DNA from: Antedon mediterranea
Taxonomy: Eukaryota; Animalia; Echinodermata
DNA: 64,000 nt
Assembly (NCBI RefSeq): GCF_964355755.1
Contig: NC_092678.1
Location: forward strand, 15,729,881 to 15,793,880
Reading direction: 5' to 3'
Below, in pieces: positions 1,458 through 54,977 of the stretch; the first letter of the stretch is position 1; the number at the start of each line of letters is the position of its first letter. Made by a program: the position numbers and the translations under genes. The notes beneath the pieces are model-generated. The model made no database searches, was not told the origin of the DNA, and saw only the letters and a program-made list of their open reading frames with translations.

Positions 1458-1529
1458 AGTTCTGTCAATGATGTCAAACCATTGAAAACATTTGCTGATA
1501 ATGTTGTTATTTGATTACTGCCCAAATGC
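1458..1529 (-). CDS. 72-nt LRR exon, intact (HLGSNQITTLSANVFNGLTSLTEL)
   Basis: Minus strand ttttcAG|72 nt|GTgagt, phase 2-2, encodes one typical 24-aa LRR with no stops. Confidence 0.85.
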
Positions 1530-3628
1530 CTGAAAACCGTGAAAAAGCAATAATAATTATATGTATAGTTTCAAGGTACAGTAAACAACCATATTATTAT
1601 TTTACATCAATGTAATTAAAATATAAATAATATGATTCGTGGATATGGATCAACATCTACAATACAATATAACCGACAATAGCCCTATTACAAACACACA
1701 TTTTATTAAATGATGATGATCTATGTATTCTGCTATTTAATTTTTCATTATGGCATAATTTCACACGTCTGCCGGTGGTTATACAGTAACTGAATTAAAG
1801 AGTAAAAGTTTACAGCCAGTGTTAGTAGTAACATCTGGTTAAATGAATACACAGTAAACCCTAATACAATTTTATGCGGAACAAAATAAAATCTGACGAA
1901 TAGTAACAAAATGACAAATAAAAAGCAATTAATATACCTCAGATTTAAGAATAAGAACCTCAATTTTCGATAATTATAATTGAATAACTAAATGTCAATG
2001 TTATAGAAATCAAAAAAGTTGAAATAAAAATTAAAGTGTATAGCATGGTATAAATGTGGATCTCGATGATCAGTGACGTAAACGGATAATATGTATTCGT
2101 CATTGGTGGACATTTATCTGTAGAAGAAGACGGTTACAATAACAGTAAGGATGAGTTCTCATACAATTCTCTCATTCGTGCCGATGAAAGTGATACGTCC
2201 TAAGCCCTCCTTACCACTACTGTAGTAACGGAGGGATAACGCTATATTATAGAGGAAGAAAATAGCAGTATTTGATTTGTGACAATGAAACTATTACGTC
2301 ATAAGTTTTCCTAACTACGAATGGATAAGGAATTATACGTGTAGGGCCTACGTACCAAACTACTGTAGATTTATTTATTTATTTTATGTTCAATCTTCCT
2401 ACATAACAAAAAAAAACATAGGCCTATAGTATAACAGGATAGTAGCGGAAAAGCAAAAGTAATAAAACTGTCATCTTGTGATGCGCTTGACCAGCCCCTG
2501 TCAACTAGAACGATAATATAAAACTGAAATTTTAACAATAAATATAAAAAAATACATAGAAAAATATGCTATTTATAAAATACTAATTAAAGTGTTAGAA
2601 TATAAAAATGAAATTGCTATAAGAACATTTTTATTTCAGGCCTATAAAAGTTAAAAATTCAAATGTATATTTGCATAACTTTTATTTTATAAAATATGAA
2701 AAGTTACAAATCTATAAAATGTTACTTTAAACTGTGTTTAAACTTAAAAAATCGACTCTCCAATAAGATCATTTATGATCGTAACAGAGTTTGGAAAACC
2801 GTACTATACCTGAGTATTTAAAAGCATCAGTACGGGCTCTACCATAATGAAAGGTAAGTATATATTAATGTCGGTTATTAACTAAAAAAAGAACCAACAG
2901 AATCAACATAGATAACAGATGCCTCTCGTAGTCTCATTTTCCTTGATTGGCGAACGAAAAAGCATTCGTAATGTTTATGACGTATGCTGTCATATACTGT
3001 AATTTAATTATGATAATATTAGTTTCCTTTTGGTTAACTTTAGATGATGTTCATTTGAACAATATCAACAGACAAACTAAACAAACACTTAAGTTGCAAT
3101 TTGTTCTAGGTTCATTCTAATTTTGACTTATTTTTTACTGGTGTTTTGGTGTGAAAGGTAAAATCAAGCAACTCCGGAGTTCAAAACAGAGGAGTTGAAC
3201 AGCTGAACAGTCTCCGGATGTGTAGTTACCATGATAGTAGTGGTGTAGTTACTTAAAGAATGGCATGATTTCTAAATTCAACATTGTCTGCTATACAGTA
3301 TCTTCTGAATACAATTTTGTAATAATTATATAACTTCTCATTTAATAAAATCAGTTATAATAACAAAAATTACTGTAATAAAAGTGACGAATCCAAACAA
3401 ACTACACACAGGAGCTTGTGTTAAATTAGTACATGTTTTATTTTATCATTATTAAGATACATTAATCATAATTTTAAAATAAACATCGGGTTCGATTATT
3501 TTAGATTTAAATGAAAATTCTGCAATTGCAAAGGATCAACAACTAAAACGATGACAATAATAATTGTGGTTATCTTACAAAGAAAATATACTATTTCAAA
3601 AGTATGATAAACAATAGCAAGCACTCAC

Positions 3629-3700
3629 AGTTTTGTCAATGATGTCAAACCATCAAACACATTTGCTGTTAATGTAGTTATTTGGTTACCGTACAGCCAC
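3629..3700 (-). CDS. 72-nt LRR exon, intact (WLYGNQITTLTANVFDGLTSLTKL)
   Basis: ttttcAG|72 nt|GTgagt, same phase and LRR consensus as 1458-1529. Confidence 0.85.
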
Positions 3701-3744
3701 CTGAAAACCGTTAAAAACGAAACAAATATTTATATGTATAGTAT

Positions 3745-4378
3745 TACCTCTTTTACACCGTCAGTAAAAATGCAGAGTTGATCCGGAATTGTATAACCCG
3801 AGTCGTAACCGGGACGCAAAAATGCGGAAATGTAGGACAGTGTAAACGACGTAAAAAGTTACCCGGGTCGCTGAATTACCCAGGTAAGTGATGCGGAATG
3901 TATTCAGCGTCAAGAAGTCAACCCGGGACGCACCCAGGATGAACCTGTGTTTGCGGTGTAAAACGCTCAGTGTATCTTTACCCGTTTGTTTACTATCCTC
4001 GCTCACTATAGTATTTAATTTACATACAATTAGGATAAGATTGATTTTGTTTATTCGCTTATTCAATAAATTAAACTTATGGTTATTTGTTATTCATTTT
4101 TATTTCAAGATATTATTCTTCCCGAGTAGACTTATTTTGTGTGAGTATTGCCATAAAACAAACTTGTGGGAGTTATAATGAGCAGACCGTTACTATGGTG
4201 TCTCTTCATGCGTGAGAGGGCGATATTTCGATTGATCTAGAACATTTACACGGGTTGGAATTTTTCAGTGTAAATATACGCAACCCATGTCATTCCCGTG
4301 TTAAGAATCGTGTGTGAAAAGGAAATTTATCCGGACACGACACGGGTTTGTTATAAGCTCGGCGGTGTAAAAGGGGTA
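3745..4378. mobile_element. PIF/Harbinger-type MITE (634 bp)
   Basis: TIRs TACCTCTTTTACACCG / CGGTGTAAAAGGGGTA and a 3-bp TSD TAT; the empty site tatagTATgtctacc is visible in the paralogous unit near 36515-36530. Confidence 0.8.
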
Positions 4379-5864: not shown

Positions 5865-6042
5865 AGCCTGTTTTCCCTTCGACGTTATTCGACGCTATCG
5901 TTAACAATAATCGGCGATCTTCTACGTAAACATTGAAATGTTAACGATTTACAGGAAAAGGTACTCGCTATGGTTATCATTTCAACTTGATCGTTTTCAA
6001 ACGATCGTTGTTGAACTGTTAACGATCAACAAGAAACAGGCT
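5865..6042. mobile_element. Small MITE with AGCCTGTTT termini
   Basis: AGCCTGTTT...AAACAGGCT inverted ends; absent from paralogous units near 37085-37105 and 49995-50015. Confidence 0.65.
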
Positions 6043-6154
6043 TTATGTTGTTTGATTGGCGATCGTAAAAGCATTCGTAATGTTTATGACGTATGACGTC
6101 ATATACTGTATTTTTTATTGGATTAAGATTGAATGAACTCATAATAATGTTTTA

Positions 6155-7338: not shown

Positions 7339-7410
7339 AAGTATTATCTCAGAAGCAAACGCAGAAATGCACCTTGCTCTATGGTAGTTATAGCGTTATC
7401 ATCTAAATAC
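7339..7410 (-). pseudogene. Divergent LRR exon (YLDDNAITTIEQGAF...), frameshifted
   Basis: tttgcAG acceptor at 7411-7412, then an LRR consensus; one T missing relative to the copies at 38688 and 51169; no clean donor. Confidence 0.6.
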
Positions 7411-9817
7411 CTGCAAATAAATCAATATACACACACTTCCAAGGAAGATGTATTGTAAAACTACTATATAACAATACAATAACTAGAATAACAAACAAGT
7501 TTTCTGCTATATTTCATAGTACCGTTATGTAATTTTTTTCTTCATTTCAGTGGCCGATTAGACTTTCTCTGACACACGAATAATTGTCAAAGGCAGGCTA
7601 ATTTTGCCATTATGAGGTGCAAATCTGAGAGAGAGGAAATTATAAAGTGTAGAAACAGATATCACCTAACAAGCAAGCTATTACTGAACCATACAATGTG
7701 AAAATCATAAAAATGGCTAAACTCTGGAAAATGCTATTTTTCACATTTTAACTTAAGTTATTCTTACGGACGGATAACGTGAATAATGTACGTAGGCCTA
7801 CAATCCGAATTAGGTCCGATTTGTTGCACGTGCGAATAAAGAACCAGTGCTAATCCACCGTACGGAGGAAAAATAACGGATTCATCTCATAATTACATTA
7901 TTTTTAATTTAATAATATTTAAGTGATAATAATAATTTAATGTAAAACTAACGAATCGAAGCATCAATACACACAATACAACTACAGTAGCCTATGTGAA
8001 AAATAGTGTTTATTTTTCAATTATACCACATAGTTACGTTCAGTACTGAAATATTTTAGGATTTAAAAGAATAAAATATCTATGTGACGAAGACGGATAT
8101 GACGATCAACCTCAAAAATCATGTGACAGAAATGATTTTAAGACTTGATTTGAATATGGTTATATTGACCATAGTAACATAGATATACAATGTAATAACA
8201 TGATAAAGATATACAAAACAAAATTACAATAAAAAAGCCCCTGGCAATAGCAAACAGTCAAATCCGTCACTGGCCGTCATCTCCGTCACATCTCCGTCAC
8301 AAAGAATCATTGGGAAATTTGATGGAGTTGAGCGTGACGGAGATGATGTATTTAGCATAGGACAGGACAGGATCACCCCGTAGGCATATTTGACAGCGGA
8401 GACGGAGTGCATACTGCTAGATCCATGAATAAATTGTACTTCCAGTTGAAAAAAAACCCAACAATTTTAATTATTTAATGAGTACTATACCGTTCGGATA
8501 TGACGTCCAATAAAGGTACGCAACTTTAATTTTTATAAAACCTTGTCTATTAGGCCTAATTTAGTCTCTAAACCCATGTCTATTCTAGTAGTAGCTGTGT
8601 GGGTGTGTGTGACGTGTGTGTGTTAGGTATGACCAAAGATAGTTACACTATCTTTGGTAAGACACAATCCGAGTAATAAGTCAGCAAAATTAAACAATAA
8701 ACATTACACAAAAATATATTTTTTATTCTCGTGGGTCAAATCTTCCCATCTCATGTGTTCATATACGCGCATTTTTAAAGTTCCTTTGAGTACATGCATA
8801 TTGTTTGATAATAAAATAGCAGAATTAAAAATATACAGTACACAAATTATACACATTCTTTATTCTTGTGGGTCTAAGTTTTCTTTGGGCTATGTCCAAT
8901 GAATTACTACTTTAGTTTAATGTCTTGCCTAGCTGTCGATTAGCCTCGACTCGACACATTTTGTGTGAAGAAGAGTGCGCGAAGGCAATCACGTGAATTG
9001 ATTTAGAATCCTAGGCCTACTGTAGAAAGTATCGTATCGCAGTTGTGTAATCACTTCTTGTTGCTATACGCTTGGGTGCACACGGAACAACAAATTTAAC
9101 TGATGAATTATTCATGTTTATTTTGTGACGTTTCATGAGGGGTCCCCAACTTATGTACGAAAAAAAAAATCGCGATCGGGACATGGGGTTTTATGGGGTT
9201 GCCTGAAATTTATATATTTTTAAAATAACAATATCAATGTTATTATCTTTGGTTGATGTAATTAATTCATCTTACAATAATGTTGATTATGATATAGGCC
9301 TAAGTCAAGAATTTGTATTTTTTAATAAGGAATTTTCAGTCTCTTTCACACCAAAGTACCGGAACACGATTTTAGACACTTACTGAAGAAAAGTTCCTAA
9401 TAAAAGTCCTCTAATTGGAAATGTACAAGATACAATGCACTGTGTCCATTAGATTTTCTACATTTTATGTAACACTTGTTTGTGTTATGCGAGGTTTGAA
9501 CAATTTATGCAATTGAAAATTGGGTGGAATTCCTTGCGCAAATTGAATCCAACTACTCGATTAAAATTGATCAGATTAAAAAATAGTGCAATGTATTTTA
9601 GTATGTGATAAAACCAAAATTAAAATAAACCTGTGACGTATAAATATAAAAATAATGCAAGTCAATTCAACTCAATTCAATTCAAAGTAACATTTATTTT
9701 CTTCAAATTAAAACAGTATACACAATGATGTAAAGAAAGGTAATTAAATTGAAGAAGGCATGTTAACAAAAAAGCAAAAAGCTTGTGACAGACATGCCTA
9801 AACAAAGGTGAAATTTA

Positions 9818-12800
9818 ATTGAAGCATCCCCGGATAACCCACTTCCTGGAGGGCTTTTAATCACACCCTTAATAGTCAAGTTAGAACATATGGGCCCAGT
9901 TAAATTTAGAGTTCCTTTGTCAAATTCTAGTAAAGAAATTAGGCTAAATAGAAACTTTAAAATTGCCACTGCTTTCATCCGCCAGTCTATAACGCATCAC
10001 AGTCCGGAAGTTCACTGTAACTCAAGTACGGCCTCAAACAATTTTAATTTTGATAGCTCGCCAATTTCACATATAGGTAAGGCGAAATTTATTAATTTAC
10101 TTAATAATCATCCGAATGTTTTTTCAAAGAATGATTTAGATATAGTGAGAACTTCGTCTGTAAAACATAAAATACACATAACTAATGACACCCCATTCAG
10201 TCAACCTTGTAGGAGGATACCTGATCTGATTTCAATGATGCTAGGGACCTCATTCAAGATTTATTAAGGAAGAATATCATTAGAGTCCGAAAGCCAGTAT
10301 ATCTCTCCTATAGTATTAGTCAGGAAAAAGAAGACTAACGAAATTCGATTATGTATAGATTACAGACTTCTAAATTCTAGGTCGGTTAGGGACCAATACA
10401 ACGTCCCCAAAATTGAAGATGCCCTTACAACCTTACGTGGTGCCAAATGGTTCTCATGTCTTGACCTCAAATCAGGCTATTACCAAATTGAAATGGCTGA
10501 GGAGGATAAAGCAAAAACTGCATTTTGGTGTCCATTGGGATTCTATGAATTTAACCGAATGCCCCTAGGGATTACTAATGCCCCGCCACCTTCCAACGAC
10601 TGATGGAAAAGTGCATGGGGGAGTTAACATTTTCCAACGTTCTAGTTTATTTAGATGACTTACTAGTTTTTTCAACCACATTAGACGAACACCTTGCTAA
10701 GTTAGACAAAGTATTATCTAGGCTTGAAGAGTATGGCTTGAAACTATATCCAGACAAGTGCAATTTTGCCCAAACGTCCATTAAGTGCTTGGGCCATGTC
10801 ATATCGGAGGATGGGATAAGCACTGACCCAGATAAGGTAGAGGCTGTCAAATCTTGGCCTCGCCCCTCAAATGTAAAAGAATTGAAATCATTTCTAGGTT
10901 TTGCTGGTTATTATCGACGATTTATACAGCATTATAGCCATATTGCCAAACCATTAAACCAACTTATGACTAAGTATGACCCAATACGTAAACGAGGTAA
11001 AACTTTCAAAAAACCGAAATCAAATACTCCCTCAGACAGGCGCCCTAGTCCTAATACTCCATTTGGTACTAATTGGTCCGAATCATGTCAGGTGGCATTT
11101 GATGTACTAATAGATAAATTGTCTTCAGCCTCTATATTAGGATTCGCAGACTACAATTCACCATTTATTCTACATACCGACGCTAGCACAAGCGGGTTAG
11201 GTGCAGCCCTATATCAAGAGATAAATGGGATAAAGAGGGTAATTGCCTATGCTAGTCGTGGGTTATCCAAAAGTGAAGCCAATTATCCTGCTCATAAATT
11301 AGAGTTTCTTGCCCTAAAATGGGCTGTGACTGAGAAATTTACTGACTATCTTTATGTTCAACTATTTGTAATTTACACGGATAATAACCCCTTAACGTAC
11401 GTGTTGACGACAGCTAAGCTTGACGCTACAGGCCAAAGGTGGCTTGCCGCCCTGGTCAATTACAACTTTGATATTAGATACAAAGCAGGTAGAAACAATC
11501 AAGATGCAGACGGTCTTAGTCGTCGCCCACGTGACCCCCCTTCCAATGACTTTGAATACGAACAATATCAAGAGAAAGCTAAAGCTGACGAAGTGTTAGG
11601 TAGAGTAAAATGTTCATCCTGTTCGTTCACAGCAGTCTGTAATGCTAAAATAGTTAATACGTCTACTATACCTAATGATACAACACCCTTAGTTGAGTCA
11701 GTTAGTGATTCTCCTGATGCAATCCCCGCCATCTATGATAACCCTATTAGGCCTATAGATGGGCAGTCAACCTTGCCTAATGTTACTGCAGCGGAGTGGG
11801 TAGAGCATCAACAACAAGACCCTAATATTAAACCTATTTTTAAATTTGTATATAACAAACGGAAACCTACACAAGATGAACTCACAAAATTACCCGAGGA
11901 AACTAGGCTACTCCTGAGACAGTTTGATACATTATTGGTAAAAGATAATATTCTATACCGCCAATTTGTAAATATTATCGGAGCTATGCAATTGCAATTA
12001 GTACTTCCAACCGCTTATAGAAATAAAGCATTTACTGGCTTACATAATGACATTGGTCACCCTGGGATGGAACGGACCTTGGATCTTGCCCGATCCAGAT
12101 TTTATTGGCCTCGTATGTCCTCCCAAATTGAAGATAAATGTAGGTGTTGTGAACGTTGTGTCCGAAGAAAGGCCCGTGCTACCAAAGCAGCCCCCCTAGT
12201 TAGTGTCAGAACCACCATGCCTATGGAATTAATGTGTATTTACTTTCTGTCTATAGAACCTGATTCTAAGGATACTAGAATGTGTTAGTTGTGACTGACC
12301 ATTTCACTAGATATGCTATTGCTATCCCAACCAAGGACCAAAAAGCCCCCACAGTAGCAAAAGCTCTGTGGAATAACGTCTTTCAACATTATGGCTTTCC
12401 AAAACAATTACATTCAGATCAAGGCAGAGATTTCGAATCAAAAGTTATCCAAGATTTATGTAAATATTTAGGAGTAAGAAAATCTCGTACAACCCCATAC
12501 CATCCCCAGGGTAATGGTCAGGTAGAACGGTTTAACCAAACCCTGCTTAAAATGCTAGGCACTCTAGAAAACCAAAAGAAAGAACATTGGCGAGACCATG
12601 TTGCACCCTTAGTGCATACATACAATTGTACTAAGAATGATGCTACGGGAATGTCCCCATATTATTTAATGTTTGGTAGAGAAGCCCGCCTCCCAATTGA
12701 CATCCAACTAGGTATTGACCCAAACCAAAATGGTTCACTTTCTCCAAGGGGATATGCCGATAAATTAAGACATCGCCTAGAAACAGCACACCAATTAGCC

Positions 12801-13100
12801 CAGGAAATGGCAACCTAGAAAGCTAATGCCAATAAAGCCCGATATGATAGTATAGTGCGTGAATGCACTATTTACAAGGGTGATAGGGTACTAGTAAAAA
12901 ATGTGCGCTTAAGGGGTAAACATAAACTTGCTGATATGTAGGAAGAAACTATTTATGTGGTTTTGGAACAAATAGGGGACAACCCTGTGTACAAGATAGA
13001 GCCTGAAGATAGTGATGCAATACTAGAACATTGCATAGAAATATGCTACTCCCATGTAGGTTTGCTACAGCAAAGGAAACTCCCCTAAAAGTGGTACTAA
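9818..13100 (+). pseudogene. pol: Decayed Ty3/Gypsy pol (RT, RNase H, integrase), 5'-truncated
   Basis: RT motifs CIDYRLLN, LDLKSGYYQI and YLDD; RNase H TDAS...ELEF-like and YTDNNPL; integrase HHCC, SDQG and PQGNGQVERFN. Split by frameshifts near 10220, 10590 and 12280 and by stops after 12818. Confidence 0.92.
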
Positions 13101-17501: not shown

Positions 17502-17573
17502 AGTTCTGTCAATGATGTCAAACCATCAAACACATTTGCTGGTAATGTTGTTATTTCATTACTGCCCAAATAC
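17502..17573 (-). CDS. 72-nt LRR exon, intact (YLGSNEITTLPANVFDGLTSLTEL)
   Basis: ttttcAG|72 nt|GTgagt, phase 2-2, LRR consensus. Confidence 0.85.
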
Positions 17574-19310
17574 CTGAAAACCGTGAAAAAGCAATAATAA
17601 TGATATGTATATTTTCAAGGTACAGTAAACAACCATATTATGTTATTAAAATGTTATTACATTCTAAAAACAACAACAAATAGGTACTGCATTGTGCCAA
17701 AAGAAGTAAAAATACTTTTGTCGCCGATTAGGAGTGCCAGTGCAATAGTAAATGTATAAAAGTAGTTAGAAAATACTAGTACTTGTTGATATTACTTCGG
17801 CTTTTATATTATCATTATTTACATTTTACAACTATTTTTCATTAACTTCTTTTACATCAATGTAATTACAATATCAATATTATGATTCGTGGATATTGAT
17901 CAACATCTACAATACAATATAACCGACAATAGCCCTATTACAAACACAAATTTTATTAAATGATGTATTCTGCTATTTAATTTTTCATTATGGCATAATT
18001 TAACACGTCTGCCGGTGGTTCTACAGTAACTGAATTAAAGAGTAAAAGTATACAGCCAGTGTTAGTAGTAACAACTGGTTGAATGACAACATAGTTACCC
18101 TAATACAATTTTCTGTGGAACAAACGACTTTGACCTAAAATAAAATCTGACGATTAGTAACAAAATGACAAATGACAAGCAATTAATATACCTCAGATTT
18201 ATGAATAAGAACATCAATTTTCGATAATTATAATTGAATTATTAAATCGCAATGTTATAGAAATCAAAAAAGTTGAAATAAAAATTAAAGTGTATAGCAT
18301 GGTATAAATGTGGATCTCGACCATCAGTGAAGTAATCGGATAATATGTATTCGTCAATGGTGGACATGTATCTGTAGAAGAAGACGGTTACAGTAACAGT
18401 AAGGATGAGTTCTCATACAATTCTCTCATTCGTGCCGATGAAAGTGATACGTCTTAAGCCAACCTTACCACTACTGTAGTAACGGAGGGATAACGCTATC
18501 TTATAGAGAAAGAAAATAGCAGTATTTGATTTGTGACAATGAAATTATTACGTCATAAGTTTTCCTAACTACGAATGGATAAGGCTATATACGTGTAGGG
18601 CCTACGTACCACACTACTGTAGATTTATTTATTTATTTTATTTTCAATCTTCCTACATAACAAAAAAAAACTAAATGCTTTAGTCTAGTCTATTCTAGCC
18701 TATAGTATAACAGAGGAGTAGCGGAAAAGCAAAAGTAATACAACTGTCATCTTGTGATGCGCTTGACCAGCCCCTGTCAACTAGAACGATAAAATAAAAC
18801 CGAAATTATAACAATAAATATAAAAAAATACATAGAAAAATATTCTATTTATAAAATGCTAATTAAAGTGTTACAATATAAAATATTATAAAAACTAATT
18901 ATATTGTTGTATTTTATTATAATCAAAGGCTCGTAAACCGCCTCGGCTAAATTCAAGTCGCCCCCCCCCCTCCCCCCAAATCAACTCGCCCTCAAGTCAA
19001 CTCGGCCTCAAGTCAACTCGGCCTCACGTCAACATAGTTTCGTCAACTCGGCCACATTAAAGTATTGAACGCCAAAAACAGTGTTTATATTTCAATTATA
19101 CCACATAGTTACGTTCAGTACTGAAATATTTTAGGATTTAAAAGAATAAAATATCTAAGTGACGAAGACGGATATGAGCATGCGCGAGTAGAGACAACAC
19201 CTAACTTTTACACGCAGGGAAAAAGATCTTAAATTCAGACTAAAGGTAATATATAGCCAACGAACTCTACTATTTTTAAAAGTTGTATACACTAACTAAA
19301 AGAAGACTGC

Positions 19311-20132
19311 ATGATGGCGACTAATAGGCCTACTAGGGCAAATACTAAATCAATTGACTTAACAAGAAAAGCTAGACCCTCCGAAAGTCTAGAAGCAGAT
19401 GATCCAATCGAAGCCTCCGGCGACCGACAGGGGGAAACTCAAACGCTCGCCGATCAACTAGGTAGGCTATCAGAACAACTTAATGGTAAACTAGATAAAG
19501 TCCTAGAAAATCAAAAAAACTACAACAAAAGGCTTACCAAACTGGAAACAACTGTCAAAGATCTAGAAAAAAGTGTGGAATATGCGCATGATTCAACTAA
19601 CAAAACGAAGGAAGAAATAAAAAAAATTGGAAATGAAATCAAGAAAATGGAGGAGTATGAAAACAAAATGGCGGCTTATCAGGATAAAATGGCGGACATG
19701 GAAAATTCAATCCTAAAACAAGAAAGATACAGTAGGAGTTTTAATCTAAGGTTTGGAGGAGTTATAGAAAATGCTACAGAAAACACCCAGGACTTATTGC
19801 AAAAAGTACTACGCGAAGAACTCGGACTCGAGGACATCGAAATTGAAAATTGCCATCGCACCGGGAAACGCCGTTTAGATAACAAACCGAGGCATATAAT
19901 AGCTAAATTTCTGTACCGTCCACAAAGAAACCAAGTCCTAAAACTAGGAAAAGTAAAATTAAAAAGTAAATCACAAAACGTATTTATTACTGAAGATTTA
20001 CCTGACGCGGACATGAAGAAAAAGAGAGAATTATCTACAATTATGGCGCAGGCATATGCCGAAAAACGTAAGCCCGTATTCAGAAATGGACAACTGTTTA
20101 TCGACGGTAAGCCATACAAGCCACTAAAATAA
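19311..20132 (+). CDS. LINE ORF1 (coiled coil plus L1-type RRM/CTD-like region)
   Basis: 273-aa ORF with a heptad-rich coiled coil, then SRSFNLRFGGV, IENCHRTG, PRHIIAKF and VFITEDL motifs. Confidence 0.85.
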   Translation: MMATNRPTRANTKSIDLTRKARPSESLEADDPIEASGDRQGETQTLADQLGRLSEQLNGKLDKVLENQKNYNKRLTKLETTVKDLEKSVEYAHDSTNKTKEEIKKIGNEIKKMEEYENKMAAYQDKMADMENSILKQERYSRSFNLRFGGVIENATENTQDLLQKVLREELGLEDIEIENCHRTGKRRLDNKPRHIIAKFLYRPQRNQVLKLGKVKLKSKSQNVFITEDLPDADMKKKRELSTIMAQAYAEKRKPVFRNGQLFIDGKPYKPLK

Positions 20133-28625: not shown

Positions 28626-28656
28626 TATGGTAGTTATAGCGTTATAATCTAAATAC
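28626..28656 (-). pseudogene. Truncated divergent LRR exon (YLDYNAITTI)
   Basis: Acceptor tttgcAG and the first 10 codons are retained, then a deletion junction into another unit segment. Confidence 0.55.
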
Positions 28657-36405: not shown

Positions 36406-36476
36406 AGTATTGTCAATGATGTCAACCATTAAACACATTTGCTGGTATTGTAGTTATTTGGTTATGGTACAGCCAC
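36406..36476 (-). pseudogene. 71-nt LRR exon with 1-nt deletion (WLYHNQITTIPANVFNG/fs)
   Basis: AG/GT sites intact, but gtcaaccatt lacks one A relative to gtcaaaccat in paralogs (could also be a homopolymer assembly error). Confidence 0.75.
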
Positions 36477-38616: not shown

Positions 38617-38688
38617 AGTATTAACTCATAAGCAAACGCAGAAAATGCACCTTGCTGTATGGTAGTTATAGCGTTATCATCTAAATAC
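38617..38688 (-). pseudogene. Divergent LRR exon (YLDDNAITTIQQGAFSAFAYELIL)
   Basis: tttgcAG acceptor and 72 open nt ending in CT like the other exons, but followed by TA, not GT. Confidence 0.6.
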
Positions 38689-39291: not shown

Positions 39292-39363
39292 AGTTCTGTC
39301 AATGTTGTCAAACCATCAAACACATTTGCTGGTAATGTTGTTATTTGATTACTAGATAAAACC
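39292..39363 (-). CDS. 72-nt LRR exon, intact (VLSSNQITTLPANVFDGLTTLTEL)
   Basis: ttttcAG|72 nt|GTgagt, phase 2-2, LRR consensus. Confidence 0.85.
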
Positions 39364-42750: not shown

Positions 42751-45700
42751 TCAGTAACTTGTTGCATTATACAAACGTTTTATGAATCGTTTTGGCGATC
42801 CACTTATCGGTATCTGTTTATCATTAATGATCTCTTTAATCAATTTCTCTGTATCGTTATATCTGTCAATATTCCACCAAAATGTGCGATCATTAGATTC
42901 TTGTTTTGCTTTATCAGTGTTGTGTTTGACTAAAGTCGGTTTAGAATACGAAACTAAAACTTGGAAATGTCCTGCTTTAAATCTACCTCGGTTTAATGTA
43001 ATATTTGAATCATTAGGTGCTGTCATAATTAGATTAGTTTGTTCCTTGATTTGTTCTTCTTTCATTTGGAATGGGGCTGCTAATCTCATGTTATTCTCTA
43101 CACAGTCAATGTAAGGTTGCAAGTTAAGGGGTTCTACTTTAGTTGGATGTGTAAGGGTATCTGATTGCAATTTGGCGGGTGTCCTATCATGTTCGTCTAC
43201 AAATTCAACATTGGTTTCGTCATTTACTACATTAATGGTGTTTTGGATTTTATCGTTATTATCATCAGTGGGTTCATTCGACAATTGTTTAAGTTTTTGT
43301 AGATGTGTAAAATGTTTGCGTTCTTTAGGCGTTCTCATAAAACAAGGTTTCAGTCTCTTATAATTGAATACGTCGCGAAGTATTTCTCCTTTAATCGTCG
43401 CTAGGATGTAGTGTGTTCTGTCTAGTACTTCATGAATTACTAATGGTCCGACCCATTCTGCGGCGATTTTCTTTGAATTTGCCGTTAGTGATGATGATGT
43501 TGGCTTATATAAATATACGAGTTGTCCTACTGAGTAAATTGGACTTTTTTCTAAGCGTTGGGAAATCTTTGAGTTTTGGACGTTTTGTTGTGTTCGCTGT
43601 AATTGTAGCATTGTCTGTGAAATGTTTTGAAATTTCTTCTTGAGATGATGAAAGTATTCTTCATAGGAATGAGACAATCCTGAAATAGGGTTAAATGCTA
43701 ATGAGGTCAAACTTGGAGGTTGGCGGCCAAAAACTAATTCGTAAGGGAAGTGGTTTCCTAGATGTGGGGATGAAAACGAGTTATAAGCATAACATGTTGT
43801 TGATACAAATCTAACCCAATCTGTTCCGAATTGGTTAAGGTTGACCTTTAACAGGTCCGATATGGTGCGGATATGACGTTCAACTTGTAAACTACCGTGA
43901 TTGTGGACGCTAATGATTTTCCTATCAATATTAAGGGTGTTACATAATAGTGTTAATAATTTTCCTGTAAGGGAGGTTGCTGCATCTGAAATAAGACGAG
44001 ATGGGGGTCCAAAAATACTGATTACCTTTTGAATTAGTGCTTCACAAATTGTTTCGGCATCAATGGATTTCAAAGGTACACAAATCAAAAATCTAGTTAT
44101 CTCATCACATACTACCACAATATGTTTAAAACCTGAAGGTGATGTTGGCATACTCTTAAAATCTAGACTGAGTGTATGAAAGGGACGGTAAGTTGCTGGT
44201 ACTCGATCGTGTAAAGGACGTAATTTATCGGTTTTGGGACGAAATTGTTGACATCTAAGACACGCTTGGGTATAATTGTTGACTTTCTCGAACATAAGAG
44301 GCATGTAAAATAATTTCCTAATAGTAAGGTAAGTACGCATCGTACCTTGGTGGCTACTTAACAAATTGTCGTGATACTGAGAAATAACAGTCTCGGCTAA
44401 GTTTTCAGGAACAGCTAATTGCAATACAAATTCTCCACCTTTATCTTGGAAAAATAAACGGAATAGTAAACCGTTGCACAATATGTACTGCTCTGACTTA
44501 TTCTGAACTGCACGAGCTGCTTTCTTATCAGCTGGAAGGATATCATGAGCTAAATAATCGTAAACTGGCTTAAAAAATGGTGAAGTTTCTTGTTCAACAC
44601 GTAATTGTTTAACATCTACTGGGAGGTTATAATCTCTAATTATCTTTCTTTGAATAACATCCATTAATCTATCTAAGTCTCGTTGTTTTGGGATGTGTGC
44701 TGATTTAAATTCAGTTATGTTGGGTACTAGTGGTTTGAGCGATGTATACAATTCAACTGGTACATTTCGATGTGTAGTATCTTTGCTTTGCTTACTTTTG
44801 TCTACTAGTCGTTCCTCTGGAGGTTGTCGAATGTTTACATTACGTATTGGGGGTGGTGTTACGATAGGTGGCGTTATGATAGGCGGTGATCGATGTGCGT
44901 TTGTTTGTTGTCTCGTGATTATTTGTGGTGTAGCGGTAGGTTGAGGTGTAGGTCGCGTGTTTGTTGTCACTGGGTTTTGATTAATGACGGGCGTTTGTAC
45001 TGGTTTGGGTTGATGTAGGTCAGGTATATTTATTCCCATTTTCTTGGCGTATGACCTTGTTACTGGTCTGCAAGTAGATGTGTTTGTAATCGGGTTAAGA
45101 GATTCAGTCTCTATAATATTAAATGCAATGGGTACAACTTGATCAATTTCGGAATCGTCGTCACGAGGGGCTCGGGAGAGAAAATCTGCTAAAACTAATT
45201 CAGTTCCTTTCTTATAACCAATTTGGAAAATGTATCCGGACAATCGTAATATTAGTTTTTGTAAACGGGGTGTACATGGCTGATCTTTTGAATTCCAAAT
45301 TTGTACAATTGCTGAGTGGTCTACGAATGCATCAAATTCGCAACCCTTTAGTAAATGTCGAAATGCTGAAACGTTAATGTAAAGTCCAAATAACTCTAAT
45401 TCTGTGACGCTATATCGTTGACTGGCTTGTGGTAAGATTTTGGAATAATAACCTATTATGTGTTCTTTACCGTTTACTGTTTGTGTTAAATATGAACCTG
45501 TTGCGGTTCTTGAAGTGTCGCTATATAGCGTAAATCTACCTTCTTTTCTAGGCATTTGAAGAGTTGGTGGTTTAACCATTAATTGTTTAATTTCGTCAAA
45601 TGCTTTCTGGTGGTCAGTAGACCAAACAAATTTTCGGCGTTTACTTGCGAGTGTATGTAACGGACGTAAAATTGATTGTATTTGAGGGAAAAAATGGGAT

Positions 45701-47466
45701 ACATAATTTACTGCACCAATAAATCGTTTAGTTTCTTTATGGGTTTGTGGGGCTGGCAAATTTCGGATAGCTGCACACCTGTCGCCTAATGGTCTGATAC
45801 ATGCGTGTCTTGAAGAATTAATCAGGATGTTGTGTCCCATATATTGCCCTTTATTCTTGAATAACTTACATTTCTTTAGACAAATTCTAAAACCATTTAA
45901 TTGTAGGGCTTGTAAAACGGAAACGAGGTGCTGCTTATGAGCAAATTTGTCTTGGCTAAATAAAATAATATCATCGTGATGGGCGATACAGAATTCTCTA
46001 GAATTTGGGATTTCATTTAAAATTTCGTCAATCTTTGCTTGAAATATACCTGGCGAAACGTTTAATCCTTGTGCTAATCTCTTATAATAATAATGTTTTC
46101 CACCATGATATGAAGCTATACCTGTATATTGTTGGGCATGTTCGGCTAATGGTACACAGTGGAACGCTGATTTCAAATCAATTACGCTAAGAATCTGTGA
46201 ATTAGCGTTACCTATTGTTTTCAAAGTTTCAGCTAATAATGGGAATGGGTGATTAATACGTTTTATCCTGGAATTTAGATAGCGAAAGTCTGTGACAACT
46301 CTTTCATCTTTTGAATTTTTCTTTGAAACAAGAAGGACAGGGGAAGTATACGATAGGTGTCCTACTGATAAGATTCCTAGTTTGACTAATTTGTTCAATT
46401 CGGCCTCAATAACATGTTTGTCTTTGTCTGTCGCGAAGTATGGTCGAATAAAAAATGGTTCATCGTTAGAGAGGTGTATGTCAGCTTTGAAGTTTGGGCA
46501 GCTAGATAGTTCAACATAAAGTGAAAATCCGTTTCTGTTTTGTTGTAATGTTTTATACAAATCCTCTTTTTCTCTATGTGTTAAAACGCTGTCTGTTAAA
46601 TCAACTTGTTTTCTAATTATTTCTTCCTCGGTTAAAGATAGCAATGGGTCTGTACGTTCTAAATGTGGGTACTTGTTTGCGTTGTCATTGGTCAACTTTA
46701 TTCTATCTATTGGTAGGTTATTAGTAACTGTTACAAGGTTGGTTAAGTGAAGGCTCGCGATAGGTTGATGTGTATTTAGAGATACGTTTCTGTTTGTGTT
46801 GTTAGTGATATCAATGTTGGTTTCTTCTCTATGTAATTTCACTAACATATCTGATGGACAAAGTTTTGAAATATGGGTAGTTGCATGTAGAACAACATCA
46901 GAATTGCGTACAAAGGCGGGAACCCTTCCTTTTAATTTAACTGTTTTAGTATCACCGGGTTTAAGAAAAATCTTGTGTACTGGACGAAAGCTAAAAATCT
47001 TTGGTCTAATGCGAAAGGTGTTTTCCTTAAAATTTAAAGTACCGTCGAGTTCAGACAATATTTCGGTTCCAAGTATCAGGTCAATACCTGTTAAATTGTT
47101 AACGATTAATGCTGAAATTTTAAATTTGTGTCCTTGGATAAATAATTCGAATTGCACTAAGTGGTTGGCATATAAGAAGTCACCGTTACCTAATCGAAAT
47201 TTAGTTGTGTTCACTTTAATTGGCTTTAGACGCGATAAATAAAGTGAGGAATTAACGTACGATTGTGAGATTATAGTTCTAGTTGAACCACTGTCAAATA
47301 AAGTTAAAACATTTCTACCATCTGGTAAATTTCCTTTAACGTAATTTCTGTCGTTAAGTAACAAATCGATCTTATCTGAATTCCCTAAGTATTTTGCCTT
47401 AAAATTGTCGTATTTAGTATGGGGGGCCAGATTATAGGCGGCATCTAGTCCCCTTTTTAAAAATCC
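42751..47466 (-). CDS. pol: Intact Ty3/Gypsy pol (protease, RT, RNase H, integrase), reached by -1 frameshift from gag
   Basis: LFDSGS protease; VTDFRYLN, IDLKSAF, AQGL and AHHDD RT motifs; SDTS/ELEL/VDH RNase H; HHCC plus D,D,E integrase. The frame is open from the GGATTTT site at 47466-47460 through the 1537-aa ORF. Confidence 0.95.
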   Translation of the reverse strand, partial: GFLKRGLDAAYNLAPHTKYDNFKAKYLGNSDKIDLLLNDRNYVKGNLPDGRNVLTLFDSGSTRTIISQSYVNSSLYLSRLKPIKVNTTKFRLGNGDFLYANHLVQFELFIQGHKFKISALIVNNLTGIDLILGTEILSELDGTLNFKENTFRIRPKIFSFRPVHKIFLKPGDTKTVKLKGRVPAFVRNSDVVLHATTHISKLCPSDMLVKLHREETNIDITNNTNRNVSLNTHQPIASLHLTNLVTVTNNLPIDRIKLTNDNANKYPHLERTDPLLSLTEEEIIRKQVDLTDSVLTHREKEDLYKTLQQNRNGFSLYVELSSCPNFKADIHLSNDEPFFIRPYFATDKDKHVIEAELNKLVKLGILSVGHLSYTSPVLLVSKKNSKDERVVTDFRYLNSRIKRINHPFPLLAETLKTIGNANSQILSVIDLKSAFHCVPLAEHAQQYTGIASYHGGKHYYYKRLAQGLNVSPGIFQAKIDEILNEIPNSREFCIAHHDDIILFSQDKFAHKQHLVSVLQALQLNGFRICLKKCKLFKNKGQYMGHNILINSSRHACIRPLGDRCAAIRNLPAPQTHKETKRFIGAVNYVSHFFPQIQSILRPLHTLASKRRKFVWSTDHQKAFDEIKQLMVKPPTLQMPRKEGRFTLYSDTSRTATGSYLTQTVNGKEHIIGYYSKILPQASQRYSVTELELFGLYINVSAFRHLLKGCEFDAFVDHSAIVQIWNSKDQPCTPRLQKLILRLSGYIFQIGYKKGTELVLADFLSRAPRDDDSEIDQVVPIAFNIIETESLNPITNTSTCRPVTRSYAKKMGINIPDLHQPKPVQTPVINQNPVTTNTRPTPQPTATPQIITRQQTNAHRSPPIITPPIVTPPPIRNVNIRQPPEERLVDKSKQSKDTTHRNVPVELYTSLKPLVPNITEFKSAHIPKQRDLDRLMDVIQRKIIRDYNLPVDVKQLRVEQETSPFFKPVYDYLAHDILPADKKAARAVQNKSEQYILCNGLLFRLFFQDKGGEFVLQLAVPENLAETVISQYHDNLLSSHQGTMRTYLTIRKLFYMPLMFEKVNNYTQACLRCQQFRPKTDKLRPLHDRVPATYRPFHTLSLDFKSMPTSPSGFKHIVVVCDEITRFLICVPLKSIDAETICEALIQKVISIFGPPSRLISDAATSLTGKLLTLLCNTLNIDRKIISVHNHGSLQVERHIRTISDLLKVNLNQFGTDWVRFVSTTCYAYNSFSSPHLGNHFPYELVFGRQPPSLTSLAFNPISGLSHSYEEYFHHLKKKFQNISQTMLQLQRTQQNVQNSKISQRLEKSPIYSVGQLVYLYKPTSSSLTANSKKIAAEWVGPLVIHEVLDRTHYILATIKGEILRDVFNYKRLKPCFMRTPKERKHFTHLQKLKQLSNEPTDDNNDKIQNTINVVNDETNVEFVDEHDRTPAKLQSDTLTHPTKVEPLNLQPYIDCVENNMRLAAPFQMKEEQIKEQTNLIMTAPNDSNITLNRGRFKAGHFQVLVSYSKPTLVKHNTDKAKQESNDRTFWWNIDRYNDTEKLIKEIINDKQIPISGSPKRFIKRLYNATSY

Positions 47467-48413
47467 TGCTGGTGGCTAGGGTAGTAATTGTTTGACTGTT
47501 GGTATGGGTATGGCGGGGGATAGTTTCCGTAAGAACGGTTTTGTTGTCGGCAGTACCTTGCTATGTGGCCTGGTTTCCCGCAGTAATAACAGGTTGGGGG
47601 AGGTTGTCTATATCTTGGGGTCGGTGGGGTCTGGAATCGGGGTTTGTATGGGCTTGGGCTTCGGTTTCGTCTTGGGATATAATTTCGGGTGGGGGAACGT
47701 GAGCGTCGAGTATCATCATTAAGGGATCGTTTTGTTGTGGCCATGTCTAACTTGATAGAATTTATCTCATGTTGGAGCGATTCGAGACTATCTGTTTCCT
47801 TATTGATATTGAATGAAACTTCCCGTGTGGCATCATCTACGGAAAGGTCAAGGTAATTTTGTGTGCTATTTACGATATTGTCAATAGTGGCATCGATTGG
47901 GGTGGACATGGCTACAGCTGCTCTACATTTTGGTGGAAGGGTCGAAATAAATTTATTCTTTATCTGCTGGTCAGCGTATCCAATTCTGTCTGCGGCTTGT
48001 TTGATTTTGGTTAAGTGTTTTTCGGCATTGTCGCCAGTGGTGTAAGTAATTGAATCGTATTCTCTTATGTGCGCATAGATTGATTTGTTTTTACTAAACC
48101 TGTTGATGAATTGGGTTTTTAAGGATTCCAGTGAATCGAACTGCTTTCCCTCAATCCAGAGTCTAGCTTGGCCCTGGAGGCTACGTTTAAAAATACTTAT
48201 TACATTAATTAATTGGGCATTGTTTACAGGGTTTTCTAAAGTGTGGGCCTCAAGGTAGTCGGTAAACGATAAGTAATGTGCACTACATTGGTCGTGATCG
48301 GTTATGGAACCGTCATATCTTTTGGGAAGGAAATCGGTTTGTCTTAGGTGGGGCACGGGATGAGGATTGACGGGCTCATTTAAAATTACTTCGTTATCAA
48401 CAACGTCGACCAT
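47457..48413 (-). CDS. gag: Gypsy Gag with CCHC zinc knuckle
   Basis: 318-aa ORF with a retrotransposon capsid-like FKRSLQGQARLW motif and CYYCGKPGHIARYC. Confidence 0.93.
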   Translation of the reverse strand: MVDVVDNEVILNEPVNPHPVPHLRQTDFLPKRYDGSITDHDQCSAHYLSFTDYLEAHTLENPVNNAQLINVISIFKRSLQGQARLWIEGKQFDSLESLKTQFINRFSKNKSIYAHIREYDSITYTTGDNAEKHLTKIKQAADRIGYADQQIKNKFISTLPPKCRAAVAMSTPIDATIDNIVNSTQNYLDLSVDDATREVSFNINKETDSLESLQHEINSIKLDMATTKRSLNDDTRRSRSPTRNYIPRRNRSPSPYKPRFQTPPTPRYRQPPPTCYYCGKPGHIARYCRQQNRSYGNYPPPYPYQQSNNYYPSHQQDF

Positions 48414-49149
48414 ACTTTATAATAATAATTATTAATCAAATATCAAAAACAATTTAGTGTATATATATGTAAACTCTCACTTTTTCAATCAAGGTTACAA
48501 ATCAAAAATCAAAATGGTTTTGACTTACCCCAAAGGCTTTGGATCCAATTAAAAATGAATTAAAGGAATGCAAAAAGTGTTCAAAAATGTTTAAATGTTC
48601 AAACAACGAATTAAAGAAATGTTAAAGTGCTCATCAATGTTCAACTTTTCAAACAACGAATTCAAAAAAAATGCGAAAGGTGTTCATCAATGTTCAAAAA
48701 AAGTAAATGTTAAAAAAAAACGATCGAAAGAAAAAAAAACGGCGTGAAGTTGAAAGTGTCCAAACGAAACAGTTCTTGTCCGCTTGCTTCTGTTTTGATT
48801 CTTCTTGGGTCTTCCTCGATTATCTTCTTTGTCTTTATCCAATGGTTATAATTTGATAAAGTTTCTGCTTGTCTCGATCTCATTCAAAAATAATTTCAGC
48901 TTGTCTTTTGTGTCTTCCTCGATTATCTTCTTTGTCTTCATCCAATGGTAATAATTTGATAAAATTTCTGCTTGTCTCGATCTCATTCAAATATAATTTC
49001 AGCTTGTCTTTTGAGTCAAAGTAAATTTCTGGTTTTCTCCTTTCAAACAAATATGGTTATTTTTGTCTTCGTCTTCGTCTTCGTGTCTTGTTAAGTGTTT
49101 ATTTCTTGTTTTCTCACTCTGTTCCTTATGAAATTCGGGTCTTCCACCA

Positions 49150-50247: not shown

Positions 50248-50326
50248 TACTCCTTTCACACCAAATAAGCAAAACTCCCGAGACACTCCGGAGTTGACGC
50301 CCCGGTGTTTTGGTGTGAAAGGGGTA
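50248..50326. mobile_element. PIF/Harbinger-type MITE, internally collapsed version 3 (79 bp)
   Basis: Same termini, TTA TSD and flanks as 6155 and 37338; interior deleted at the internal GGTGTGAAAGG repeat. Confidence 0.75.
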
Positions 50327-51097: not shown

Positions 51098-51169
51098 AGT
51101 TTTAACTCAGAAGCAAACGCAGAAAATGCACCATGCTCTATGGTAGTTATAGCGTTATCATCTAAATAC
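51098..51169 (-). pseudogene. Divergent LRR exon (YLDDNAITTIEHGAFSAFASELKL)
   Basis: tttccAG acceptor, 72 open nt, no canonical donor. Confidence 0.6.
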
Positions 51170-51915: not shown

Positions 51916-51987
51916 AGTATTATCAATGATGTCAAACCATCAAACACATTTGCTGATATTGTAGTTATTTGATTACTGTATAAACTC
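51916..51987 (-). pseudogene. 72-nt LRR exon with mutated donor (SLYSNQITTISANVFDGLTSLIIL)
   Basis: Acceptor and frame intact; donor TTgagt, the same lesion as 34242-34313. Confidence 0.75.
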
Positions 51988-53547
51988 CTGAAAACCGTAA
52001 AAAATACGATAAATAAATATACACAGTACCAAAGGATAGTACCTGAAACCATGAACAATGCGTTAAATAATAATTATTACAGTTCCCATGTACATTACGA
52101 TCAAGAAGTATTTATTTATAATTCTTGAAAAAACAGATAGCTGTATTATACTAACAGAAACCAAAGAGCTTCTGTAGCCGATTAGGAGTGCCTTTCCAAC
52201 AGTACAGTCATTAAAATGTATACACAAGGATATAATAATACTTGTTGATGTTACTTTGGTCCTTATTACCATATTATTAAATGACGATGATGCAACATGA
52301 ATTCTGCTATTTTATTTTTCATTGTGGGATTATTTTATCATAGAAGAACAAATTTAAAGATATTACGCTTGAACGTATTGTACATGAAACAGATACTTTA
52401 GAAGTATTAATGTATAAATATAATAATTATTATTAGGCTTAGGGTCAAACTGTGCCTGCAAATAAAAAAGATCCAAAGCACTACACAGCTGAGCCCCCTG
52501 GTTGAATGACAACACATTGTTCACCCGATACAATTTTCTGCAGAACCAAACAAAGAATATACAAAAAGAAATTAAATTTAATTAATTTTAGATAAACAAT
52601 TTAGAATAATGGCATATTAAATTATCGATAATTATAATGATGATGATTCTCTCATTTGTGTCGATGCAATTGATAAGTCATAAAGTTCACCGAACTTATT
52701 ATAACGATATATGTGTAGGGTCTACGTAACAGATGCATCCCAGTATGACGATTTCATAAGAGATATATTATAACGTTTTGTTCTGCGTGCTGCTCAACTT
52801 ATTACTGTCAACACTATTGCAGTATATTTTACATAATCGAAACAATGTCGAGCATTCCTTCTCGTGTGGACAACCACATAGAGAAACTTGAACATGTGAA
52901 CGCTGTTATGTTACCCGGTTCTCAGTCTTCACATACGACAATTATTTACCCTGAGGACAATTTGGTAATACAGAGCCTCATATCATAATAGTGCTATCTG
53001 TATCATTAGCTTATGAATTAGGTTATGGCCTATCATAGTTTGTGATACATATGAAACATGTAAATGATGCTGTATTACCGAATGTTGCTATGATGCTACA
53101 GAAATCGAGATACAATACCAAGAATCAGGTTATGTTAGACGTTACTTCGGCTTGAAATGGAGGTCTTAGCTTTAACCACCTTCTGAAATGTGACTGTACA
53201 ATTTTGTGAGGCCAAAATTATACCTTGTACACATGGATAAGGTGCCGTAGAGACATATACTATTGTCTAATTGCTAAATCCTTTCTGAAATTGTTATTTT
53301 CTGAAGAATGTTGTCCATAGATATAACACCGTACTACTGATTTGATACGAATTGTATAATTGTAACATAATGTGAAATGTTCCTTACCATGCTAGTAATG
53401 GTGCAGTAATTAAATAATTACATGATTTGTAAATTAGTTTTTATTATCACAGAGTGTAACACAGTGTGACGTATTGTCTGCAAACTCTTATGAATGGTGA
53501 ATTAATATGTATTTTATAATAATTATGTAATTTCTCATTTAATAAAA

Positions 53548-54665
53548 CTCGTGTCTATTTTCAGTCACTATTGACTTCAGTGGAAATTTCTTCTATGAAT
53601 GGATTAGTAAATGGAAGCATGAACACCAGTTGATAAAACAGTTCCATTTTGAGTTTGCAATCATTCGTGAAAGGCCAAGTGAAGTCACAAGTCCAAGGAA
53701 TAAAGGTTTTCATCCTATAAAAAAAATTGTACGCAATCAATTGAAACTAATAAATATTTTACACACGCTATAATAATAATTCGCAAACAGTGATGGTGCT
53801 GGAATATGCATACAAGGGGTCAACATGCGTGATGCAAAAATAAAAAAAATATTGATTTTGCCCTGCCTTTGTCGACTATAAATCATGACATAAATAGGCC
53901 AAGTCTTGAGTCGATGTCTATATATGGCGCTACTCTATAGTATGTGCCTATATAGGCCTCGTATCGTACCATATAGGCTCAATAAATGTATTAATTATTG
54001 TTAAGTTAAGTACGCTTCTAGGCCTGTATATTATTATAAATAGAAATCTAGGCCTATTATTTTTCTTGAACACCAAAAGCCTGAACTTATTTAATTAACA
54101 TATCCTGGCCATAGTAACTAAATACAACAGTCCTCTGAGTCTGAGTATAGGCTCTAGTGTGTTTAAAGCCCACCCACCTACGTAAAACACGTGGGTATAG
54201 CCATAAAACTTTGAATGAGTGGTAAACTGGGCCTAGATCTGCCGTTAAAACAATTTTAATTCTAGAGGTTCAACAACTATTTAAGTACCAAAAAATGTTT
54301 ATTTTGGTTCTTTAAAAAATTCAACAGACACGTGGTGCAATTTTTGCCGTAATCATAACAAAAAGCAACAAAAAAACTATTAAAATATCTCATTATTTCA
54401 ACTACTCACCACGACCAAAGTATTCAAGCTACGTATCTCAAAATCGATTCCCACAACAACCAGGACATTCCTAATGAATATTCATGAGAAATCTCACCGA
54501 TTTCAACAATCAAAGGCTTCTGATTCGTTGATTAAATATGATGTAATTATTTTCCCTAAATAAAAACAAATCATTTCCGCGTTTGTATAGCGCCCTCAAT
54601 ATCGAAAATATTTAACTTTTACCGATAGAAGGCTCACTACTTTATGTCGCTATGAAACAGCCGTG
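53548..54665. mobile_element. One-ended Chapaev-like DNA transposon remnant
   Basis: Interrupts the host motif ttaataaaa|cataccag and ends GAAACAGCCGTG, resembling the 33829 terminus; the other end was not found. Confidence 0.55.
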
Positions 54666-54931
54666 ACATACCAGTTATAATAACACATCACTGTAATAAA
54701 ACAGACGAATCCAAGCAAACTGCATTGTGTTAAAATATTACAGTTTTCTTTTATCATTATTAAGATAATAATAATATTAAAAAAAAAAACACCGGGTAGG
54801 CCTATATTATTTTAGATTTGGATAAATATTCTGTAATTGTAAAGGATAAGTAAAACGATGACAATGACAATTGTGGTTATCTTACAACGAAATATTATTT
54901 TCAAAAGTACGATAAATAAGAGACAGTACTC

Positions 54932-54977
54932 AAACACATTTGCTGGTAATGTTGTTTTTTGATTACTGTCCAAATCC
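54932..54977 (-). pseudogene. Internally deleted LRR exon (DLDSNQKTTLPANVF)
   Basis: Acceptor intact; the 3' part of the exon and the donor GT were removed by a deletion at short microhomology (tca). Confidence 0.7.

What the first reader, a model, noticed from the sequence alone, without database searches (positions are those of the whole stretch)
1458..54977. Hypervariability focused on concave-face LRR residues
Seen: the first four residues are HLGS, WLYG, YLGS, SLYS, WLYH, VLSS, SLYS and DLDS, and the penultimate residue is E/K/E/I/I/E/I, while NQITT-ANVFDGLTSLT is nearly constant even at the DNA level. Established: these x positions of LxxLxLxxN form the ligand-binding concave beta-sheet, the same positions that vary in VLRs and plant LRR receptors. 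Inference: diversifying selection on ligand binding.
Basis: partly seen in the sequence, partly recalled or inferred. Interest (0 to 1): 0.8.

Follow-up and report, generated by a model that had tools for sequence, protein, structure and literature searches.

The report
Fast-changing single-repeat LRR exon array
In an animal genome, likely a feather star, eight tandem copies of a 72-base exon, half of them broken, each encode one leucine-rich repeat whose predicted binding-face residues differ far more than the rest, likely through selection for new binding, a pattern already known from brown algae.

Summary
Eight copies of a 72-nt, phase-2, one-LRR exon lie on the minus strand with the residues listed. 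Codons 1, 3, 4 and 23 (x5, x7, x8, x3 of LxxLxLxxN) differ at 0.435 per site against 0.10 elsewhere in the exon. Only 4 of 8 copies are intact. The 'constant' part plus about 50 intron bases is mosaic and homogenised: about 10% divergence where flanks differ by about 40%. My own codon models support selection: M7 vs M8 p=0.012; fixed-site omega 3-5.6; 0 of 180 neutral simulations reached the observed statistic. Codon 1 is firm, 3 and 23 moderate, 4 unsupported. The signal fails when codons 1-5 get their own rate (omega 1.5, p=0.45), and the same four positions are also the most variable in 220 unrelated LRR proteins. The gene's other domains, its ligand and any immune role are unidentified. 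Verdict: a new animal example of a known kind, the Ectocarpus-type LRR exon array.

The parts
1458..1529 (-). A-type LRR exon, lineage X, intact (HLGS...E)
   Evidence: AG and GT at 72 nt; Pfam LRR_8 E=2e-4, below the curated cut-off
3629..3700 (-). A-type LRR exon, lineage Y, intact (WLYG...K)
   Evidence: LRR_8 E=0.003
7340..7410 (-). B-type LRR-like exon (YLDDNAITT...), one base missing, no GT at 72 nt; likely dead
17502..17573 (-). A-type LRR exon, lineage X, intact (YLGS...E)
   Evidence: closest solved sequences are designed LRRs and VLRs
28626..28656 (-). B-type exon remnant; likeness ends after about 10 codons
34242..34313 (-). A-type exon, lineage Z, donor reads TT; likely dead (SLYS...I)
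36406..36476 (-). A-type exon, lineage Y, 1-base deletion; likely dead (WLYH...I)
38617..38688 (-). B-type LRR-like exon, no GT at 72 nt; status doubtful
39292..39363 (-). A-type LRR exon, lineage Z flanks with an X-like exon core, intact (VLSS...E)
51098..51169 (-). B-type LRR-like exon, no GT at 72 nt, stop shortly after; likely dead
51916..51987 (-). A-type exon, lineage Z, donor reads TT; likely dead (SLYS...I)
54933..54977 (-). A-type exon remnant, lineage X, 3' part and donor G deleted (DLDS...)
59014..59085 (-).
   Evidence: LRR_8 E=0.005

Best explanation
This is part of a gene in which each leucine-rich repeat is its own 72-base exon, multiplied by tandem duplication with half the copies broken, and selection likely favours new residues on the predicted binding face while gene conversion likely keeps the scaffold alike. 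Shown: exon size, phase and splice sites; kilobase duplicated blocks around the exons; three lineages; 4 of 8 broken copies; conflicting trees for exon and flanks; excess amino-acid change at codon 1. Inferred: because every exon is phase 2-2 and 72 nt, unequal crossing-over can add or drop one repeat without shifting the frame. The five intact exons (59085, 39363, 17573, 3700, 1529) would splice in order into one VLR-like solenoid of an extracellular receptor, and germline turnover would vary its concave face against changing ligands, most likely microbial. Diversity would arise over generations, not within the animal.
For: Exon anatomy. Duplicated blocks of 0.5-1.5 kb at 80-93% identity carry the exons. 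Fixed-site omega is 4.1-5.6 in 5 of 5 fits with 8 copies (p=5e-4 to 1.5e-6) and 3.1-3.8 in 3 of 3 fits with the 4 intact copies (p=0.003-0.014). M1a vs M2a p=0.019 and 0.0042; M8a vs M8 p=0.0015 and 0.0004. Allowing double-base changes leaves p=1.8e-4 and 3.5e-5 for the four-codon set. 0 of 60 replicates in each of three neutral nulls, two with a homogenised core, reached the observed statistic. Core vs flank divergence differs at p=1e-7 to 1e-3 in 5 of 5 comparisons with Z. The exon rejects the intron tree (AU p=0.009) and the introns reject the exon tree (p=7e-8). One contig in run X9 (RNA by guess; depth 2.3) joins an A-type exon end to an A-type exon start; that joint is absent in the 3 other runs laid.
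Against: With a free local rate for codons 1-5 and codon 23 left out, omega falls to 1.5 (p=0.45). Codons 1, 3, 4 against the most diverged flanks give p=0.11-0.24 in 3 of 4 fits. Homogenisation alone raised false positives to 15-37% at the 5% level. The variable codons do not exceed flank divergence in 5 of 5 comparisons with Z, nor in 2 of 4 recent pairs (1/12 and 0/12). The same four positions are the most variable (0.82-0.85) in 220 of 375 fetched proteins that had six or more such repeats, so the position pattern alone is generic. PHI was significant at 1 of 3 window sizes. No other domain of the gene was found in the window, and no close relative was retrieved (best 19 of 24 residues), so receptor type and immune role are unshown.
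Confidence: 0.58

Rival explanations
1. No positive selection. The solvent-exposed x positions are free to drift, and short conversion tracts import divergent 5' blocks from other paralogs while homogenising the 3' part, which mimics hypervariability.
For: Silent changes also cluster in codons 2 and 5 (pi 0.32 and 0.14). A block rate of 2.8-3.8 absorbs the signal. The x positions vary in all LRR arrays examined. Other LRR exon types that share the 3' end appear as loose ends in runs X4 and X6, so outside donors likely exist.
Against: The block-rate model is not itself significant (p=0.076; p=0.66). Leu2 and Asn5 are unchanged in 8 of 8 copies while codon 1 has 6 residues. 0 of 180 neutral replicates matched the data, though import from unsampled donors was not simulated.
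Confidence: 0.25
2. The whole locus is a decaying pseudogene in a transposon-rich region, and the pattern is a relic of past selection.
For: 8 of 13 LRR-like exons lack an intact 72-nt AG-GT frame. At least three Gypsy-type and one LINE-type element lie within the introns. Omega outside the variable codons is 0.36-0.60 with 8 copies.
Against: Omega outside the variable codons drops to 0.18-0.29 when only the four intact copies are used, as expected if they are still constrained. One exon-to-exon joint in X9, copy not identifiable.
Confidence: 0.09
3. The copies are alternative cassettes chosen within the animal, either by mutually exclusive or skipping splicing (Dscam-like) or as donors for somatic conversion (VLR-like).
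For: Symmetric exons can be skipped in frame. About 50 intron bases after each donor are unusually alike, as a splicing element might be. Brown-algal LRR exons are reported to be alternatively spliced (PMC11378527 abstract).
Against: No conserved fold in the 60 bases after the donor (z from -1.7 to +0.9 in 8 of 8) and no pairing partner in the window better than shuffles (-28.1 vs -23.6 to -29.3). The one joint seen links two A-type exons in series, which mutual exclusion would not give. Intact copies have ordinary splice sites.
Confidence: 0.08

Closest known systems
Brown-algal ROCO genes with type I LRR exons (PMC3341825; PMC11378527)
   Same: One LRR per 72-nt exon; inactivated exon copies in introns; recombination among exons; positive selection at x3, x5, x7 and weakly x8, the same ranking of x8 as here.
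   Different: Here the repeat is the 'typical', VLR-like type without GxxP, and the exon boundary falls after the Leu before x5. All 13 copies lie on one strand. No ROC-COR domain was seen, and the host is an animal.
Tetrahymena 90-bp LRR exon arrays (PMC6564038)
   Same: Clonally duplicated fixed-length LRR exons with phase-2 introns, ectopic exchange, and nearby LINE-like elements.
   Different: 90 nt vs 72 nt; short introns vs 2-22 kb between intact exons here.
Variable lymphocyte receptors (VLR) of lampreys and hagfish
   Same: Repeat sequence: VLRs and VLR-based designs make up most of the best 60 PDB hits shown; the concave face is the variable one.
   Different: VLR genes are assembled somatically by a conversion-like, CDA-dependent process (PMC7768089). 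Here the repeats are spliceable exons and nothing shows somatic assembly.
Animal genes with modular LRR exons (Slit, NLRs; LGR/RXFP receptors recalled)
   Same: Exon-per-repeat modularity is reported for human S/T-class LRR families such as Slit (PMC6642158); LGR4/5 and LRRC15 are among the PDB hits.
   Different: In those genes the repeats are old and diverged (own knowledge). Here they are young, 80-95% alike in DNA, and turning over. Crinoid GRL101 and related LGRs are reported as single-copy (PMC8286064).

Membership tests
Typical (24-residue) LRR | LxxLxLxxNxL motif with 24-residue period | tested here: met
   Read directly from the exons; Pfam LRR_8 E=2e-4 to 5e-3 for 5 of 6 exons tried, all below the curated cut-off as single repeats
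Ectocarpus-type LRR exon array (works like) | One repeat per fixed-length symmetric exon | tested here: met
   72 nt, 1+23 codons+2, in 5 intact exons
Ectocarpus-type LRR exon array (works like) | Inactivated exon copies within introns | tested here: met
   8 of 13 copies
Ectocarpus-type LRR exon array (works like) | Recombination among exons | tested here: met
   AU tests and block distances, Fisher tests; PHI significant at 1 of 3 windows
Ectocarpus-type LRR exon array (works like) | Positive selection at concave x positions | tested here: inconclusive
   Significant; lost under a local block rate or the most diverged flanks
ROCO GTPase | ROC-COR domains | not testable with these tools
   No genome is held; the array runs to the window's end; 11 of 24 long ORFs were scanned and gave only retroelement domains or a weak coiled-coil hit
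VLR | Somatic assembly from incomplete germline gene and donor cassettes | not testable with these tools
   No cell-level data; intact copies carry splice sites, which argues for ordinary exons
VLR | LRRNT, connecting peptide, LRRCT and stalk | not tested
   Only LRR-profile and ORF scans were run; no dedicated cap search
Dscam-like mutually exclusive cluster | Docking-selector RNA pairing | tested here: not met
   Only the conserved stretch after the donor was tested: no fold and no partner above shuffles within the window; a partner outside the window is not excluded
LGR/GRL101 receptor | LDLa repeats and seven-helix domain | not testable with these tools
   Not seen in the window; rest of the gene unavailable

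The most novel reading that the evidence does not exclude
A crinoid family of VLR-like immune receptors whose binding face is diversified by exon-level duplication, loss and conversion, with broken copies as conversion donors and possibly combinatorial exon skipping: an invertebrate-deuterostome route to LRR receptor diversity parallel to jawless-fish VLRs.
Probability: 0.12. Interest if true: 0.8.

Novelty: new member of a known kind. Interest (0 to 1): 0.4.

Why it matters
If the selection signal holds, this marks a fast-evolving recognition gene in an animal group whose immune repertoire seems little studied: my searches listed no paper on such an array in crinoids. It names three or four codons and five exons to test. 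It is also a clear example of how conversion can exaggerate hypervariability. The design itself (one LRR per exon, variable concave face) is already described in brown algae and ciliates.

Tried and rejected
Whole genome: none is held, so the rest of the gene and paralogs could not be read.

Relatives: the profile search of 1.84 billion representatives and two word-indexed searches returned long multi-repeat LRR proteins, nearly all unnamed; the two named by taxon and the one are bacterial. The best repeat identity among the 150 was 19 of 24. Ranking favours many-repeat proteins and only 120 of 457 hits were listed, so this does not show absence. ESM Atlas gave generic LRR clusters.

Sequencing runs: no RNA holder listed; this is no evidence on expression. 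Only 1100-3800 could be laid, so joints among the other exons are unseen. The 670 contigs laid in X4 are not a copy number and include the window's own copies.

Splicing structure: no docking-type pairing found.

Model fits: the double-base nulls started at a boundary; I rely on the restarted fits. The upstream flank block U0 (21 columns) is gappy, so its divergence is an upper estimate. Local alignments give lower estimates.

Literature: two searches added nothing specific. Earlier notes on this genome or sequence: none. No structure was predicted, since single exons are too short for a meaningful fold.
Full report
SETTING. The window is AT-rich (33% GC) and holds LTR and LINE retroelement ORFs. 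The best hit of its LINE protein is a protein named from Antedon mediterranea, at 48% identity against at most 42% for the other 119 listed. I infer a crinoid host from this single, weak clue. No genome is held.

WHAT IS THERE. Scans found 13 LRR-like exon units, all on the minus strand: eight A-type (the finding), four B-type and one C-type. An intact unit is AG, one base, 23 codons, two bases, GT: 72 nt with phase-2 introns, the split codon giving Leu. Five are intact: 59085 (C), 39363, 17573, 3700 and 1529. 34313 and 51987 have TT at the donor and are a 93%-identical pair, so they likely count as one loss. 36476 lacks a base and 54977 lost 28 bases. None of the 4 B copies has GT at 72 nt. 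The exons sit in duplicated blocks of up to 1.5 kb at 80-93% identity. The flanks sort the A copies into three lineages: X (1529, 17573, 54977), Y (3700, 36476) and Z (34313, 51987, 39363).

OBSERVATION. Nucleotide diversity is 0.435 at codons 1, 3, 4, 23 and 0.101 at the others. Codon 1 has six residues in eight copies, codon 3 four, codon 4 three, codon 23 three; Leu2 and Asn5 never change. These codons are x5, x7, x8 and x3 of LxxLxLxxN. They match positions 17, 19, 20 and 15 of the Ectocarpus exon, reported as selected and concave (PMC3341825; I read sections 15 and 22 and search passages).

WHY THE REST IS CONSTANT. Between Z and the other lineages the flanks differ by 0.37-0.44 per site, but codons 6-22 by 0.06-0.10 and the next 45 intron columns by 0.10. 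Fourfold sites plus that intron stretch are more alike than the flanks in 5 of 5 comparisons with Z (p=1e-7 to 1e-3) and in 0 of 2 X-Y comparisons. Exon and intron data reject each other's trees (AU p=0.009 and 7e-8); PHI gave p=0.009, 0.08 and 0.18. Copy 39363 has Z flanks but shares three informative exon and intron sites with X. This is the pattern of gene conversion over about 100 nt. Constraint on a splicing element is an alternative, but no fold or pairing partner was found.

SELECTION TESTS. These used my own MG94xHKY code, not PAML, on 23 codons, with naive empirical Bayes and no multiple-test correction. Fixed-site omega was 4.1-5.6 (8 copies, 5 fits) and 3.1-3.8 (4 intact copies, 3 fits), all above 1 at p of 0.014 or less. 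Against flanks alone, omega was 2.7-5.4 in 12 of 12 fits (p of 0.0045 or less). Site models gave M7-M8 p=0.012 and 0.0021, M8a-M8 p=0.0015 and 0.0004, and M1a-M2a p=0.019 and 0.0042. The posterior was 1.0 at codon 1, 0.83-0.91 at codon 3, 0.78-0.94 at codon 23 and 0.09-0.20 at codon 4. Neutral simulations reached the observed statistic in 0 of 60 replicates under each of three nulls. The two nulls with a homogenised core gave 15% and 37% false positives at the 5% level. Recent pairs gave 1/12, 3/12 (p=0.016), 6/12 (p=0.0003) and 0/12 differences at the four codons against flank counts taken.

AGAINST SELECTION. When codons 1-5 get their own rate and codon 23 is dropped, omega is 1.5 (p=0.45). 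Codons 1, 3, 4 against the most diverged flanks are significant in 1 of 4 fits. The four codons do not exceed the flanks in comparisons with Z. The same positions are the most variable in the 220 of 375 fetched proteins with six or more such repeats. Selection is therefore likely, firm only for codon 1, and overstated by the raw contrast.

EXPRESSION. No run on record as RNA holds the stretch. On 1100-3800, run X9 (same species label, RNA by guess) has one contig of depth 2.3 joining 1527 to 3628. That fits an in-frame joint of one A-type exon end to the next exon's start with one differing base in codon 1. The joint is absent from X4, X6 and X8. At 80% likeness it cannot say which copies are joined, and X9 also covers intron. 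Loose ends in X4 and X6 show other LRR exon types with the same 3' end, so more family members lie outside the window.

MECHANISM. Shown: symmetric exons, duplication, decay, mosaicism, and excess replacement at x5. Inferred: unequal crossing-over adds and removes repeats in frame, conversion resets the scaffold, and selection spares and favours new concave-face residues. The product would be an extracellular solenoid of at least five repeats, VLR-like in sequence. An immune role is a guess from analogy.

COMPARISON. It works like the brown-algal type I LRR exon arrays (PMC3341825; PMC11378527, abstract and outline only) and the Tetrahymena 90-bp arrays (PMC6564038, passages). Exon modularity of LRRs is also reported in human genes (PMC6642158, passages). 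It is not shown to be a ROCO, a VLR (somatic assembly; PMC7768089, passages) or an LGR (single-copy in crinoids; PMC8286064, passages). No supplements were read; supplementary table 4 of PMC3341825 holds the site lists I cite from the text. Eight paper searches listed no report of such an array in crinoids; most subscription papers are outside the library.

VERDICT. Real, and a new member of a known kind. Interest 0.4.

Noticed in passing
window 42751-48416 (-): Gypsy-type LTR retrotransposon with a long open pol frame (1574 aa: protease, RT, RNase H, integrase) and a gag-like frame with a zinc knuckle, inserted within the array.
   Followed up: partly
window 19296-24003 (+): LINE-like element with a 278-aa ORF1-like frame and a 917-aa RT frame, opposite to the LRR gene; best hit named from Antedon mediterranea.
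   Followed up: partly
window 9812-12818 (+) and 56416-58125 (-): Two further Gypsy-type pol remnants; a gag-like frame runs off the window at 1-666 (-).
   Followed up: partly
window 59139-60184 and 61833-62717: About 1 kb inverted repeat pair (84% identity) with internal tandem repeats, just upstream of the C-type exon; possibly a foldback-type DNA transposon.
   Followed up: no
window 24456-25252 vs 26135-27007: Inverted repeat of about 800 nt at 89-90% identity.
   Followed up: no
about 40-75 nt upstream of exons 34313, 39363 and 51987 (-): Z-lineage copies carry a second, tandem copy of the splice-acceptor sequence just upstream of the exon.
   Followed up: no
window 29519-30438: Head-to-tail duplication of about 475 nt at 90% identity.
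   Followed up: no
codons 10-11 of the A-type exons: Codon 11 varies S/T/P and codon 10 L/I outside the concave face; posteriors for selection stay at 0.48 or below.
   Followed up: partly
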